Assembly: GCF_006345805.1 (NCBI RefSeq)
Contig: NC_043004.1
Span: 8,246,001-8,310,000, forward strand
DNA from: Octopus sinensis
Taxonomy: Eukaryota
Length of the DNA: 64,000 nt
Direction: 5' to 3'
The position numbers and the translations under genes are program-made. Positions 6,337 to 46,857 of this stretch are shown here, in pieces. The notes under the pieces are model-generated. The model made no database searches and was not told where the DNA came from. It saw only the letters and a program-made list of their open reading frames with translations. Within the stretch, counting starts at the first letter, position 1. Every line of letters begins with the position of its first letter.

Positions 6337-7289
6337 ATGTATGTATGTATGTATGTATGTATGTATGTATGTATGTATGTATACCTTAGAATATCAAAAC
6401 TGGTTTCCAGAGCAAGTTTTTCTACGTATTTCTACTTCTTTTCGATCTGTCTAGTAACCACGTCGCTGTTGAGCTTGCTAAAGAAAAGTTAAGATTTCGT
6501 AAAACAAAACAATGTATTTTATTAGTTTTTTTTTTACCACACTTGTAAAACCGTCGGGTTTTCTTCAATTGTTTGTAAGAAACCAGAGTGGATATTTAAT
6601 CAAGCAAGCCAGCAAAAAATAAATACAACTTAATATTATTTTTGCTGACTGGTTACATATTTAGTATGGTGGGAGGTAGACGCAAGTTGGGGTATCACAT
6701 TCCTGCTTGTCTGACCTTTCTGCATTACTCCAATTATACACAAAACGTTTGCTAATGGAACATGATTTCAATAAAATAAAAGATGAAATGCGCAGATGTG
6801 CAGAACAGGAAGTTGCATCGATGCGAGACTGCTACATGTCTATAAATTGAAATGTACTCAGGAATCGAGGCATTATTTTTCTAGAGGTTTCTTGCTGTTA
6901 TGTATGTATATATGTATATATAAAATACAGTGTACATTTAAATGCATGAGGAATCCACTCGTGAGATAGGGAAATCTTATCGGCCCAGTTGTATTATGTA
7001 AATTATCAAGAATCATTGTTATGCTTTTTAGTATTAAGATATGCCGGGTGCATTCGGTACGTTTATAGTTTTGTAACATGTAGGTTATATTGAACAGAAA
7101 TGAGTATTCTGAATCATAATATTTTATTTATGCCAAGGATTTCGTATTTAGTCTTATATCAAATTTGATATTTTAGAGAATGTTCAAAATAATTACATTC
7201 ATTTCATTAGTTTACAGGAATGAGGATGGTAAAGGTGATAAAACCAAAGGTGGTGGGGGGTGCTTTGCTTTCTATCCTCATAAAAAATC

Positions 7290-8190
7290 CTGAGTCCATC
7301 TCGAGTAAAGTTATGATTCATTACAATAAACAGCAGCAGCACACTAGAATTAACGAGTGTTTCGTTGGCTTACCGTACCGGGTTAAAGGCCGTTTGCAGG
7401 AATACTTAGCTTCTATAGAACACCAGGAATACACATCATGGGTTTCGAGTTACAGGTACAAGAGTTTTGCTTTCAGATTCGGGAAAGAAATAGCTTAACC
7501 CATAAAACGTTGGGATTTGCACTTACATAGCGTGGACTGCTGCGCACATTTTATGAAAATGAAAGTTTTACATAATCTGAAAAGTCATTAGTTGAACTAG
7601 TAATCCTCTTGCATTCTGGGGGATATCGGAGTGTTTGAGTGACTTTAGACCCCAACAAACGCCCATAAATTAAATGCATCTATCTGGGCCACATCCTGGA
7701 CTGTCGACCTGTGCCTGACGGCTACGATTGTGACCCGTCGCGCTTTACGTATTAATATACACATCCACTCACATCTTTTCACAATTCCTCTTCTCACAAT
7801 TTGTTTATTCACAGACAGATACATCCAGCGCTAAATAAATAGTAGTTTAATCCTTTCTACTGAAAACAAATTGTAAAATAGTAAATAATGATAATAATTT
7901 ATTTTTAACTCGGCGCAAACCCGTATAATTTAGGATGGTTAGAATATTGTGATGTTCGTAATTTCTAAAATTAGCATACTTAAATATATAACAACGTCGC
8001 CATGATAGATCGTTAGCCACTACACGCATTTTTTTCTCTCCTTGTTTTTTATTCTGTGTCCTTTTCTGTAGAAGAGCGTAGGCTCGAAACGTAAAAGACT
8101 TTTTCTATTCCTGAGCGTTATACTAATACATGTTTGTTTTCTACACTACCTGTCTTCGTCTTTTGTTTTTTTCGTAAACTCTCCCTATAT
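7290..8190 (+). mobile_element. Probable old Penelope-like remnant (degenerate GIY-YIG + 3' repeat)
   Basis: ORF 7220-7498 includes SSKVMIHY..ECFVGLPYRVKGRLQEYLASI, which is GIY-YIG-like. FW..TLDPN lies near 7615-7655. A minimal hammerhead-like motif follows at 8061. Confidence 0.4.
8061..8097 (+). ncRNA. Minimal PLE-type hammerhead-like motif, core-mutated
   Basis: CTTTT-CTGTAGA-A-GAGC-GTAG-GCTC-GAAACGTA-AAAG. The layout matches PLE minimal hammerheads (CUGAnGA-A-stem-GAAACGUH), but the core reads CUGUAGA. Confidence 0.5.
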
Positions 8191-9340: not shown

Positions 9341-9922
9341 AATCTTTTCTACTCTAGGTACCAGTCCCGAAATTTTGGGGGAGGGGGCCAGTCGGTTAGA
9401 TCAACACCATTACGTAACTGGTACTTAATTTATCGATCTCAAAAGGATGAAAAGCAAAGTCGACATTGGTGGAATTTGAACTCAGAACGTAGCGGCAGAC
9501 GAAATACCTATTTCTTTACTACCCACAAGGGGCTACACACAGAGAGGGCAAACAACGACAGACAAACGGATTGAGTCGATTATATCGACCCCAATGCGTA
9601 ACTGGTACTTATTTAATCGACCCCGAAAGGATGAAAGGCAAAGTCGACCTCGGCGGAATTTGAACTAAGAACGTAGCGGCAGACGAAATACCTGTTTCTT
9701 TACTACCCACAAGGGGCTAAACACAGAGAGGACAAACAAGGACAGACAAATGGATTAAGTCGATTATATCGACCCCAGTGCGTAATTGGTGGTTAATTTA
9801 TCGACCCCGAAAGGATGAAAGGCAAAGTCGATCTCGGCGGAATTTGAACTCAGAACGTAAAGACAAACGAAATACGGCTACGCATTTTTCACGGCGTGCT
9901 AACGGTTCTGCCAGCTCACCCC
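9341..9922 (-). mobile_element. SINE family A trimer (head + three core modules)
   Basis: Three tandem copies of ggatgaaa(g)gcaaagtcga...ggaatttgaact.agaacgta at ~9445, ~9629 and ~9813, with a single head at ~9890-9922. Confidence 0.9.
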
Positions 9923-10569
9923 TTACGCCTGTAATGAATATTATAAACACACTGCCATAAGTTACATTTAGTTTTATTTATGTGATTCTCTTTTTCTTCG
10001 TCTCTTTCTTTATTTTCATAGTGCGAAGAACCAGCAAACAACACCGTAGAGCTGAAGGTCGATTTTCCACTGACGACATTTTGTTGCTCGATGAAATAAA
10101 TATTCGACACAAACTATTTGACAAGTCACCCATTTACTCAGCGCTTCTTGTAAGCAAATATAGGAAGTCCTAATACAAAAACAGATAAAATCACCGAGGG
10201 TGTTGTTGCTAGTCATGTTTTATATTAACAAAACAATCAATATTGTAAAATGAAAGCTCCTTCCTTCGCACTCTCTTGAAATGAATGAAAAATAAACAAG
10301 AAGAAATCATTGATTAATGTTTATCTTAATGTTAATCTGTTCATCTACTCAACAACTACAAAATGTGTTTCGAACAAAAAGAACGATGCATACATACACG
10401 CGTACATTTGTGTGTGTGTGTTCATACCATATGTATATATATATATATATATATATTCAGTTGAATATGGTACTTAAGTTAAAGGTACCAGAATTTAGTA
10501 TGGTATTATCCATATAATTCAAAACGGGGTGATTACAATCAAAATAAGCAACAAGGATATCCAGAGGTA

Positions 10570-10659
10570 ATGCAGTACAATCGTTTCATGCGACTCCATT
10601 TAATTGAACAATGCAAATATTACATCAGTTTTAAAATGTAGAGCAATCTTCAGCTGCAT
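10570..10659 (-). ncRNA. Type-I hammerhead-like motif with long stem II
   Basis: Minus strand: ATGCAG-CTGAAGA-[~59 nt]-GAAAC-GATT-GTA-CTGCAT. Stem I is a perfect 6 bp and the triplet is GUA. Confidence 0.65.
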
Positions 10660-10787
10660 AAAATTTACTACTATGATATTGTTGATGAAACATGTCCTTT
10701 GTCTATCTACTTATCCTCTTTGTGATTTTGGTTAATAGAATAACTATACAAATGAATCCTTTGAATTTAACTAAATTCTATGTTTTT

Positions 10788-10877
10788 ATGGAGCTGAAGA
10801 TTTCTCTACATTTTAAAACTGATGTAATATTTTCATTGTTCAATTAAATGGAGAAGCATGAAACAATCGTACTTCAT
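10788..10877 (+). ncRNA. Type-I hammerhead-like motif with long stem II
   Basis: ATGGAG-CTGAAGA-[59 nt]-GAAAC-AATC-GTA-CTTCAT. Stem I is 6 bp with one G-U pair. Confidence 0.65.
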
Positions 10878-11207
10878 TACAAAAATACATATGTATATAT
10901 ACACATGTATTGGAATTTTCTCTGATTTTTCAGATTTTTGTATGCTAGGCTATTGGTTTTAAATTGATATTAATTAAATTAATATCCAATTTATCTCCCT
11001 CATTATTTAAATGTTAAAATAAATATGTTCTCTAATATGCAGCATTAACTGCAGTAAATTATTTGCTGCAGTTTTTGTTTCCGGAATTTAGCGCGCCAGA
11101 ACTCAGACATTTGAAATTAACCCCAATGTAATAGTTAGAACTAAGTACGTATCTGTTTTATACAGAAAACCGGTGGTTAGTTTTACAAATTATATTGCTT
11201 TTGGAAC

Positions 11208-11684
11208 GATCGTACTGATGAGTCCTACGGACGAAGGATTACGTAAGTGATTTATTCGTTAATAGTCGAAACCGGTATACTCTTTACTCTCTCTTTTACT
11301 TGTTTCAGTCATTTGACTGCGGCCATGCTGGAGTACCGTCTTTAGTCGAGCAAATCGACCCCGGGACTTATTCTTTGTAAGCCCAGTACTTATTCTATCG
11401 GTCTCTTTTGCCGAACCGCTAAGTGACGGGGACGTAAGCACACCAGCATCGGTTGTCAAGCAATGCTAGGGGGACAAACACAGACACACAAACACACACA
11501 TATATATATATACATATATACGACAGGCTTCCTTCAGTTTCCGTCTACCAAATCCACCCACAAGGCATTGGTCGGCCCGGGGCTATAGCAGAAGACACTT
11601 GCCCAAGATGCCACGCAGTGGGACTGAACCCGGAACCATGTGGTTGGTTAGCAAGCTACTTACCACACAGCCACTCCTGCGATT
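11208..11684 (+). ncRNA. Type-I hammerhead ribozyme split by a SINE insertion (11208-11280 + 11681-11684)
   Basis: GATCGTA-CTGATGA-[stem II capped by GTAA tetraloop]-GAAA-CCG-GTA-TAC|SINE|GATT. Rejoining gives TACGATT, which pairs with GATCGTA. Confidence 0.75.
11281..11680 (-). mobile_element. tRNA-derived CORE-type SINE family B (octopus OR-like), near full length
   Basis: Reverse complement has a tRNA head (gcaggagtggctgtgtggtaag..ggttcagtcccactg), a CORE-like atcttgggcaagtg, an internal TA/TG repeat and an (AGAGTAA)n tail. Confidence 0.92.
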
Positions 11685-11993
11685 AATTCTTGATTTTTTA
11701 TATAATTTTCAACTGCCTTGCCCGCCTATTGTTCTGGTGTCCGCTGAATTTTCTCTAGAGAACATTCTGTCTTTGTAGTTTGATCGTGGGTGATCTATTT
11801 CTAGCATATGGCTGTCCACATCGTGGTTTTTAGCTCTTAAAATATACACATGTATTGGAATTTTCTCTGATTTTTCAGATTTTTGTATGCTAGGCTAATG
11901 GTTTTAAATTGATATTAATTAAATTAATATTCAATTTATCTCCCTCATTATTTATATGTATAGATATGTATGTATATATATATGTATGTATAC

Positions 11994-12024
<31 letters not shown>

Positions 12025-12049
12025 TGTATGTATGTAGTATGTATGTATG

Positions 12050-12129
<80 letters not shown>

Positions 12130-12532: not shown

Positions 12533-13020
12533 TTCCTTAACATGTTTCAGCATACTTCTGCCTGGCGGCAAATTTTGTAATTCACCTTGATACGAATAAA
12601 AGCTCTCAGGGGGCGAGACGAACAGGATAAATATTCTTAAATTACATTTAAATTACATAGTTTCAGGTTTAACTTTCAAATTAAATAAACAAATTTTAAA
12701 ATAACTAATTTAATAAGTTTGACTTTCCACAGCGCTATCGCTTCATATTTACGAAGAAACATGAATAATTTTCTTTTTTTAAATGGCTGTGGACGAATAA
12801 GCTAATATTTAAAAATTATTCATGTTTCTTCGTAAATATGGAGCGATAGCGCTGTGGGAAGTCAAACTTATTAAATTTAAATTAAATTAATTATTTTAAA
12901 ATTGATTTATTTAATTTGAAAGTTAAACCTGAAACTATAGTATACTATTGACTCAGTAATTTTGAAATACTTATTCTGTTCGTCTCGTCCGCTGAGAGCT
13001 TTTATTCGTATCAAGGTGAA
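12533..13020. mobile_element. Foldback (arms 12581-12772 / 12812-13020) with degenerate hammerhead-like motif on the minus strand at 12533-12612
   Basis: The arms are reverse complements with indels. The minus strand reads CTGAGA-GC..GC-T-GAAACATGTT, a PLE-type palindromic stem III. Confidence 0.65.
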
Positions 13021-13483
13021 CTGCAGATGTCTCTTTAAAGCAATATGCACGGAAATAGTAGCTTCTATCTCCTTCTACACACACACGCACACACACACAA
13101 GCACATACATACATATGTGTATACATGTATATGTGCGGATATGTGTGTCTGTGTGTGTATATCTGTGTATATGTATGTGTGTGTATGTGCCTGCATTTTA
13201 TATGCGTATATACTGTATAGAAACATGTTTGTGTGCGTGTGGTTCACTGAGCGAAACCTTTAAGTGAGAGATCCCCATTCATAACGACGCTGTCTGTCCA
13301 GGATGTAAACTCTCCCAGTTTAGTTGAAGATTAGATAGCAGAGGCAATCACTTTAAGACGGCTATCAGCTCATCACACGTGCTTATAACGTAGTCAACCT
13401 CTTGGCTTCACTTACAGAACCAGCTTTCACTGATATGACACGTTCGGTAAAATGATATTCACAAACTAATAAATAAATAGTTA

Positions 13484-45995: not shown

Positions 45996-46017
<22 letters not shown>

Positions 46018-46083
46018 AGTGAGAGAGAGCGAGAAAGAAAGAAAGACAGAGAGGTAGAGATAGATATAGATAGATAGATAGAT

Positions 46084-46123
<40 letters not shown>

Positions 46124-46485
46124 ATCAGAAAATGAGGCCAAATTCGAAACACCTCTTGATGTAACTAAAGAAAATAGAAGAGGGTAATACAAAATTTATG
46201 TCTCGTTCATTCGATGTCTCTGTTTTTGTGCCAACATATCTCGCGTCCATATTTTAAAGTTGTGTGCCTGCAGAAATTTTGGTTTAAAATCCAGTGTACG
46301 TATTTGTATTTCGTTTTTACTTATCAATTTAATGTTGAACACAAATGCCCATGTCCCGATACACGTACAAACACAGACATGTACATATGTAGATAAACAT
46401 AGGCATATACAGAAATGTGCATGTGTGTGTGTGTGTGTGAGTGAGAGAGAGCGAGAAAGAAAGAAAGACAGAGAGGTAGAGATAG

Positions 46486-46541
<56 letters not shown>

Positions 46542-46857
46542 ATCAGAAAATGAGGCCAAATTCGAAACACCTCTTGATGTAACTAAAGAAAATAGAAGAG
46601 GGTAATACAAAATTTATGTCTCGTTCATTCGATGTCTCTGTTTTTGTGCCAACATATCTCGCGTCCATATTTTAAAGTTGTGTGCCTGCAGAAATTTTGG
46701 TTTAAAATCCAGTGTACGTATTTGTATTTCGTTTTTACTTATCAATTTAATGTTGAACACAAATGCCCATGTCCCGATACACGTACAAACACAGACATGT
46801 ACATATGTAGATAAACATAGGCATATACAGAAATGTGCATGTGTGTGTGTGTGTGTG
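45996..46857 (+). repeat. Near-perfect 418-bp tandem duplication bounded by (TG)n
   Basis: gccatcagaaaatgaggcc occurs at 46121 and 46539. The unique parts look identical by eye; only the GA/GATA repeat lengths differ. Confidence 0.92.

What the first reader, a model, noticed from the sequence alone, without database searches (positions are those of the whole stretch)
10897..11954. Retrozyme-like unit: ~545-bp non-coding direct-repeat element carrying a canonical hammerhead
Seen: two 113-bp direct repeats (10897-11009, 11842-11954; 2 mismatches) enclose a canonical CTGATGA...GAAAC hammerhead and no ORF. Removing the inserted SINE gives a ~545-bp period, i.e. one monomer plus a partial second. 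Known: PLE pseudo-LTRs and metazoan non-LTR retrozymes are tandem hammerhead repeats whose transcripts can self-process to monomers or circRNA. Inference: this is a slightly-more-than-unit-length insertion of a cephalopod retrozyme or non-autonomous PLE. I do not know of a described family with this sequence.
Basis: partly seen in the sequence, partly recalled or inferred. Interest (0 to 1): 0.75.

Follow-up and report, generated by a model that had tools for sequence, protein, structure and literature searches.

The report
Hammerhead mini-retroelement copied by Penelope
This is one broken copy of a 545-base, protein-free repeat with a hammerhead self-cutting RNA motif, present at over a hundred places in this genome and likely copied by the enzymes of Penelope-type retrotransposons, possibly from a circular RNA; it is a new family of a known kind of element.

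Summary
The two 113-bp repeats (2 mismatches), the 545-bp period after removing a 400-bp SINE-like insert, and a type I hammerhead are real. The hammerhead is not canonical: helix II is 46 nt and helix III is a short palindrome. In this copy the insert breaks helix I.
The unit is a dispersed family. Of 122 mapped loci, 113 end at one of two fixed points 113 nt apart, nearly always in (TA)n. 5' ends are variable, 50 loci have an inverted 5' arm, 46 exceed one unit, and one is an ~11.6-unit array. No copy has an ORF upstream in register. This is Penelope-like element (PLE) anatomy without the ORF. The 113-bp 'direct repeat' is the optional PLE tail on a copy that begins at the unit start, not a terminal repeat.
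The hammerhead and the whole-unit fold are conserved, with compensatory changes in a sister family. [quoted passage not shown] Cleavage, circular RNA and the partner PLE are not shown.

The parts
10897..11954 (+). Whole insertion: one 545-bp ORF-less unit (u1-u545) plus 113-bp tail, interrupted by a 400-bp insert
   Evidence: 95% identical to nearest copies
10897..11009 (+). Unit start u1-113 (first 'direct repeat'); the 5' junction follows the truncated arm of a neighbouring element
11208..11277 (+). Type I hammerhead: helix I 5' strand 11208-11214, CTGATGA 11215-11221, 46-nt helix II 11222-11267, GAAA 11268-11271, palindromic helix III ACCGGT, predicted cut after GTA 11277
11278..11679 (-). 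400-bp high-copy SINE-like insert (ends ambiguous by 2 nt), head at the right, tail at the left; splits helix I
11678..11841 (+). Rest of unit u382-545: helix I 3' strand (TGCGATT), U-rich strand of the predicted central rod, terminal hairpin; ends at the first preferred 3' end of the family
11842..11954 (+). Tail: second copy of u1-113, ending at the second preferred 3' end of the family
   Evidence: 41 of 122 loci end here
11955..12127 (.). (TA)n/(TATG)n tract, the inferred target site
10456..10880 (.). Adjacent, separate ORF-less element of another family: two inverted arms, each with a hammerhead motif (CTGAAGA at 10794 + and 10653 -)

Best explanation
The stretch is one decayed copy of a 545-bp ORF-less, hammerhead-bearing repeat family that is likely mobilised in trans by the reverse transcriptase/GIY-YIG protein of a Penelope-like element (PLE). 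Shown: dispersed copies, two fixed 3' ends 113 nt apart, (TA)n junctions, variable 5' ends, inverted 5' arms, more-than-unit and multimer copies, no linked ORF, and a conserved hammerhead and fold. Inferred mechanism: the few copies with two hammerheads are transcribed; the palindromic helix III lets two motifs cut as a dimer and release a 545-nt monomer, which is probably circularised (about 45% likely). The PLE protein nicks (TA)n DNA and starts cDNA at one of two internal sites, about 165 or 278 nt downstream of the cut site. It copies backwards across the unit junction and the cut site, and stops at random. Priming on both strands would give the inverted arms. The window copy started at the second site (hence the tail), stopped at the unit start (hence the apparent 113-bp terminal repeat), and was later disabled by a SINE-like insert in helix I.
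For: 3' ends: 72 of 122 loci at the unit end, 41 at the tail end, 9 elsewhere. (TA)4 lies at the 3' junction in 102 of 121 loci against 13% of 3,236 flank windows. Inverted 5' arm in 50 of 122; in 38 its outer end is again the unit end or tail end. These match the PLE features in PMC8557442 (partial tandems, inverted 5'-truncated copy, tail at either end, microsatellite bias) and PMC11167929 (two internal RT starts define the tail, both strands cut and extended, AT-rich targets). Coding RT+GIY-YIG elements with long open frames are in the genome and also end in (TA)n. Hammerhead: 92.8% of cells paired and 39 two-sided changes against 22.5+/-4.1 shuffled; helix III stays palindromic or nearly so through indels (CCGG, CCTAGG, CCGCGG, CCGCCGG); G at position 17 in 1 of 139. 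A sister family at 82% identity keeps 86.9% of predicted pairs against 76.4+/-2.3% under randomised substitutions, with 6 compensatory pairs, 5 of them in the hammerhead. The consensus folded as a circle has z -8.5 and a real copy z -4.5, 30 shuffles each. Both repeats within an insertion share subfamily alleles: 345 of 363 sites in direct pairs and 449 of 467 in inverted pairs, against about 59% expected.
Against: No partner PLE was found. None of the coding families whose 3' ends were compared resembles the unit; only a sample of the 5,029 and 7,601 first-look candidates was fetched. Insertion ends are not enriched at the cut site (3 of 121 forward and 0 of 46 inverted 5' ends within u377-387), so DNA gives no direct sign of cleavage. 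In the only in vitro PLE system the ribozyme was dispensable. About a fifth of copies (25 of 125) have A at the first helix II position, opposite C, which may weaken the ribozyme. The covariation counts reflect few independent events, and rows of alignment A1 were picked by a motif pattern. Locus sets were selected by query, so the proportions are not genome-wide rates.
Confidence: 0.8

Rival explanations
1. Same element and enzyme, but the template is an uncleaved linear multimer (or RT jumps between RNAs); the hammerhead acts late or not at all and no circle exists.
For: Ribozyme mutants did not affect insertion in vitro and no RNA ends were seen at the cut site for the anole PLE (PMC11167929). 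No end enrichment at the cut site here. Eight of nine Xenopus dimers did not cleave in vitro (bioRxiv 10.64898/2026.07.22.740005). In L028 the two hammerheads have different helix III variants, as a jump between RNAs would give.
Against: New subfamily alleles appear in both repeats of an insertion along a ladder of at least four subfamilies, which a monomer-equivalent template explains directly. A trimer query found one array among 40 scored candidates, and none of 71 dispersed copies nests inside the array's clade. The hammerhead is kept by compensatory change.
Confidence: 0.4
2. The unit is only the pseudo-LTR of an ordinary coding PLE; copies are 5'-truncated stubs.
For: PLE stubs with one terminal repeat are common. 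PLE coding fragments lie near 6 of 123 loci, and in L026 unit sequence is fused to a PLE C-terminus.
Against: All 31 loci that extend upstream of u1 enter another unit. None of the 6 has an ORF leading into the unit: three lie downstream on the same strand, two on the opposite strand, one in an inverted arm. The sister family behaves the same in 30 loci (two tblastn hits, L349 separated from the unit by (TA)n; L339 not inspected). An ORF-less 11.6-mer exists.
Confidence: 0.07
3. A LINE-mobilised SINE-like element (inversions by twin priming), or a satellite/local duplication with a chance hammerhead.
For: LINE twin priming also makes 5' inversions (recalled); the genome is rich in LINEs (PMC13282606 passages, related species). 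Some array units share private changes, so local exchange occurs.
Against: No poly(A) or target duplication at 3' junctions. Inverted arms often repeat the 3' end already present in the forward arm, or carry the tail, which twin priming from one RNA end does not give. Copies are dispersed over most chromosomes. The reversed control pattern had 0 hits.
Confidence: 0.05

Closest known systems
Metazoan non-LTR retrozymes (Cervera & de la Pena 2020, PMC7229834; Li et al. bioRxiv 10.64898/2026.07.22.740005)
   Same: ORF-less head-to-tail unit, one type I hammerhead per unit, GC 33%, highly self-paired predicted circle with the ribozyme free to fold, co-occurring PLEs; PLE origin already proposed there.
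   Different: Unit is 545 bp against 150-450 bp in the 2020 paper (the preprint's range reaches 972 bp). Nearly all copies are 0.3-1.6 units, with one array in 122 loci. Helix II is 46 nt. Neither main text mentions tails or inverted arms, which this family shows. Circular RNA is not shown here.
EN+ PLE insertions (Craig et al. 2021, PMC8557442; anole Poseidon PAc, Frangieh et al. 2024, PMC11167929)
   Same: Partial tandems, 5' truncation, inverted 5' copy, optional tail at either end, AT-rich/microsatellite targets, 3' ends downstream of a hammerhead and inside the next unit.
   Different: No ORF; tail 113 nt against 30-40 nt; partner not identified.
Non-autonomous Chlamys elements such as MRC1 (PMC8557442 passage)
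   Same: Non-autonomous PLE with pseudo-LTRs and head-to-tail multimers.
   Different: Those usually match an autonomous family at the 3' end and Chlamys lack canonical hammerheads; here no 3' match was found and a hammerhead is conserved.
Minimal PLE hammerheads (Cervera & de la Pena 2014, PMC4209133)
   Same: Type I, short palindromic helix III (dimer type), enlarged helix II, optional extra base at the 5' side of helix II.
   Different: Helix II of about 18 bp in 46 nt is far longer than the 7-8 bp described.

Membership tests
Non-autonomous PLE | No RT/EN ORF in or linked to the unit | tested here: met
   (6 PLE proteins vs 123 loci, mostly +/-1.5 kb; none in register)
Non-autonomous PLE | Partial-tandem copies with variable 5' truncation | tested here: met
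   46 of 122 loci longer than unit+20 nt; 5' ends spread over the unit
Non-autonomous PLE | Inverted 5'-truncated copy at the 5' end | tested here: met
   50 of 122 loci
Non-autonomous PLE | Optional tail at either end (two RT starts) | tested here: met
   41 of 122 forward tails, 20 inverted arms ending at the tail end; 113 nt, longer than the 30-40 nt described
Non-autonomous PLE | AT-rich/microsatellite target | tested here: met
   (TA)4 at 102 of 121 junctions vs 13% background
Non-autonomous PLE | 3' sequence shared with an autonomous PLE | tested here: inconclusive
   No match in the coding families sampled; sampling incomplete
Non-autonomous PLE | Mobilisation by PLE protein | not testable with these tools
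   needs an in vitro or cell assay
Non-LTR retrozyme | Type I hammerhead in every unit, under structural constraint | tested here: met
   broken in the window copy
Non-LTR retrozyme | Tandem copies with at least two complete hammerheads | tested here: met
   array C2:2545382-2552323 with 8 intact pattern matches; L002, L012, L028; rare, and not met by the window copy itself
Non-LTR retrozyme | Low GC, highly self-paired monomer | tested here: met
   GC 0.33, 67% paired, z -8.5; prediction only
Non-LTR retrozyme | Self-cleavage | not testable with these tools
   needs in vitro transcription
Non-LTR retrozyme | Linear and circular monomer RNA in cells | not testable with these tools
   only contigs were available; see Tried and rejected
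Canonical type I hammerhead (Rfam) | Rfam gathering score; 4-bp helix II with loop 1-loop 2 contact | tested here: not met
   0 matches in the window (interrupted copy only; intact copies were not scanned); helix II is 46 nt

The most novel reading that the evidence does not exclude
A 545-nt circular RNA is the true replicating form of a PLE-dependent lineage that has evolved on its own through at least four subfamilies and two sister families. The 11.6-unit array, with its inverted arm, tail and (TA)n end, is a single rolling-circle cDNA. This genome holds at least four unrelated families of the kind. They would be natural minimal substrates showing that retrozymes are inserted by PLE enzymes and that PLE more-than-unit copies come from circles.
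Probability: 0.3. Interest if true: 0.7.

Novelty: new member of a known kind. Interest (0 to 1): 0.42.

Why it matters
That PLE proteins move animal retrozymes has been proposed from co-occurrence and sequence trees. The two papers read on this do not use insertion anatomy. This family joins the retrozyme unit (hammerhead, tandem, self-paired monomer) to PLE insertion marks (two RT starts, tail, inverted arms, TA targets). It offers a short ORF-less substrate for the open question of how PLEs make more-than-unit copies and what their hammerhead is for. The window copy itself is a dead insertion with no sign of host function.

Tried and rejected
RNA: no RNA holder listed on record. Contigs of 4 runs were laid on L004 and 4 on the array, 7 different runs in all. 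They cover parts of the unit, but RNA is a guess there and contigs cannot show ends, strand or level, so nothing is concluded. One run shows a loose A-run after u540 in 6 contigs; unexplained.
Partner search: GIY-YIG family search (147 matches, 30 loci; 20 wider stretches, 10 of them re-fetching those loci), the PLE next to L093 (20 loci), a second PLE clade (30 of 150 loci), short-helix-II hammerhead pattern (30 of 175 hits), a family sharing the tail (30 loci), the sister family (30 loci). None gave a coding element with this unit.
Within-copy versus between-copy divergence (5.8% vs 9.1%, 69 pairs) cannot separate circle from multimer. Lack of full dimers among dispersed copies is expected from truncation alone. 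The star-shape test of the array (277 derived alleles, 148 shared pairs; dispersed groups about 190 and 77) is compatible with one event but not decisive. The insert's position at the cut site was considered as a mechanism and left as chance: one case in 122 loci, and these SINE-like tails often abut TA. Rfam gave nothing. An exact 16-mer from the window was single-copy because it holds private changes. Earlier findings: none returned. PMC5785220 was a mis-recalled id (unrelated paper); the 2017 paper on dimeric PLE hammerheads was not seen.

Full report
Observation. The repeats at 10897-11009 and 11842-11954 are 113 bp with 2 mismatches, 945 bp apart. Between them lie a hammerhead motif (CTGATGA 11215, GAAAC 11268, GTA 11275-11277) and a 400-bp high-copy insert on the minus strand, giving a 545-bp period. 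There is no ORF over 77 aa. Comparison with other copies shows that the insert sits 0-2 nt after the predicted cut and removes the 3' strand of helix I. The window motif also has a helix II mismatch and folds no better than shuffles. Rfam gave no match. The window copy is therefore very likely inactive.

Family. The window lies at G000:C8:8246001-8310000 in a 2.72-Gb assembly. A 19-mer at the hammerhead has 111 exact hits and its reversed control 0; I estimate a few hundred copies when truncated ones are included. I mapped 122 distinct loci on a 544-nt consensus. Duplicate fetches, one of two identical segmental copies (L068) and one diverged relative (L251) were dropped. The loci were chosen by three different queries, so proportions are indicative only. 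72 end at the unit end, 41 about 113-120 nt into the next unit, 9 elsewhere. (TA)4 lies at 102 of 121 3' junctions against 13% of flank windows; no poly(A) or target duplication is seen. 5' ends are scattered. 50 loci have an inverted 5' arm, and in 38 its outer end is again one of the two 3' ends, so these are two 3'-anchored cDNAs joined head to head. Some carry the tail alone as the inverted arm. 46 loci exceed one unit. All 31 that run upstream past u1 enter another unit. One locus (C2:2545382-2552323) is an array of about 11.6 units with an inverted tail arm and a (TA)n end. A trimer query found no second array among 40 scored candidates.

What the 113-bp repeat is. Craig et al. (PMC8557442, passages) list partial tandems, an inverted 5'-truncated copy, a 30-40-bp tail at either end and microsatellite bias as PLE features. 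Frangieh et al. (PMC11167929, parts 1-2 of 4) show that a PLE protein cuts and extends both strands of AT-rich DNA and starts at two internal RNA sites whose interval is the tail. The family matches point by point, with a 113-nt tail. The window copy used the second end and stops at u1, which creates the look of terminal repeats.

Ribozyme and fold. In 93 motifs picked by a core pattern (91 distinct), 92.8% of cells pair and 39 show two-sided change against 22.5+/-4.1 shuffled; these reflect few events. Helix III stays palindromic or nearly so across indels, the dimer-type design described in PMC4209133 (parts 1-2 of 4). Position 17 is G in 1 of 139. A younger sister family (82% identical, same anatomy in 30 loci) has a different but paired helix I (135 of 140 cells in the 20 loci parsed). 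It keeps 86.9% of all predicted pairs against 76.4+/-2.3% under randomised substitution, with 6 compensatory pairs against 2.4; none of the 6 is long-range. Folded as a circle, the consensus is 67% paired with z -8.5 and the hammerhead helices formed. Against activity: 25 of 125 copies have A at the first helix II position.

Template. The repeats within one insertion share subfamily alleles at 345 of 363 (direct) and 449 of 467 (inverted) diagnostic sites, against about 59% expected (array excluded). The tree of 82 units is a ladder of subfamilies; the 11 array units group together and no dispersed copy nests among them (that node did not reach 0.95 support). So the ORF-less unit evolves as its own lineage and each new allele reaches both repeats, as a monomer-equivalent template (circle or jump) would give. 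Ends are not enriched at the cut site, which argues against a linear cut monomer as the usual template but does not separate a circle from an uncut multimer. I put the circle at about 45%.

Partner. Coding RT+GIY-YIG elements with frames of 775-883 aa are present; a cysteine motif between RT and nuclease suggests the Neptune/Nematis type (passage; inference). They carry their own hammerhead variants and end in (TA)n, but none sampled resembles the unit. PLE fragments near 6 of 123 loci are out of register. The partner is unidentified.

Comparison with what is known. Non-LTR retrozymes (PMC7229834, passages and parts 2-4 of 6) are ORF-less tandem hammerhead units expressed as circles in coral, mussel and axolotl, with PLEs proposed as movers. 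A 2026 preprint (10.64898/2026.07.22.740005, parts 1-3 of 5) argues they are non-autonomous PLE derivatives; it sampled no mollusc. Non-autonomous PLEs with head-to-tail copies are described in green algae. Searches for octopus+Penelope+hammerhead and cephalopod+retrozyme listed no description of this family. The O. vulgaris repeat paper has no mention of ribozymes in its main text (PMC13282606, passages). Repbase, Dfam and that paper's supplements were not examined, and bioRxiv supplements are closed, so the family may exist as an unnamed consensus.

Verdict. A real, new family of a known kind: a non-autonomous PLE with retrozyme-type unit. Its value is that it shows PLE insertion marks on a retrozyme unit and gives a small test substrate. 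Cleavage, circularity, expression and partner remain inferred. Interest 0.42.

Noticed in passing
window 10456-10880: A second ORF-less family with inverted arms and a long-helix-II hammerhead; two 3' ends into (TA)n, no PLE ORF in 20 loci. Its core (CTGAAGATTGC...GCATGAAA) resembles the short hammerhead in the 3' end of coding PLE family L135/L142, a candidate partner by eye.
   Followed up: partly
L151-L170 and L119 (3' UTR); L026 inverted arm; L108, L121, L133, L141: Coding PLEs carry apparent core-variant hammerheads: A3-U8 (ATGAATA) and U3-A8 (TTGATAA) in place of C3-G8. U3-A8 is in PMC4209133; A3-U8 had no occurrence in the one paper returned by one search.
   Followed up: partly
L233-L235, L245-L247, G000:C4:158033749-158034647: A young ~358-bp GC-richer tandem family with a compact hammerhead, dimers and trimers, inverted arms and (TA)n ends; circular fold z -3.5. 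It is a better candidate for an active retrozyme than the window family.
   Followed up: partly
L221-L224, L228, L229, L236 and others: Another ORF-less hammerhead family (CTGATGAGAAATC...CGAAACCGGTA) with inverted arms and TA ends, unrelated in sequence to the unit.
   Followed up: partly
L273-L302: A ~500-bp family with a fixed, Helitron-like 5' start (label recalled) whose last ~80 nt match the tail of the unit (u40-122) and end in (TA)n at the same point; the tail may be a transferable integration signal or a captured piece.
   Followed up: partly
L137:6380-6892; L141:241-632 and 6878-7627: More distant sister units (65-70% identity), one with a hammerhead at the homologous place and one apparently lacking it.
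   Followed up: partly
L026, inverted arm: Unit sequence u129-193 is fused directly to the C-terminal coding end and 3' UTR of a coding PLE, a possible template switch.
   Followed up: partly
L308-L337, 3' UTR: An abundant second PLE clade has a hammerhead-like motif with CTGATGC in place of CTGATGA and two 3' ends.
   Followed up: no
window 9390-9941; 12576-13025; 46000-46857: A 184-bp tandem of another SINE-like repeat, a nested inverted-repeat (MITE-like) element, and a 418-bp near-perfect tandem duplication.
   Followed up: no
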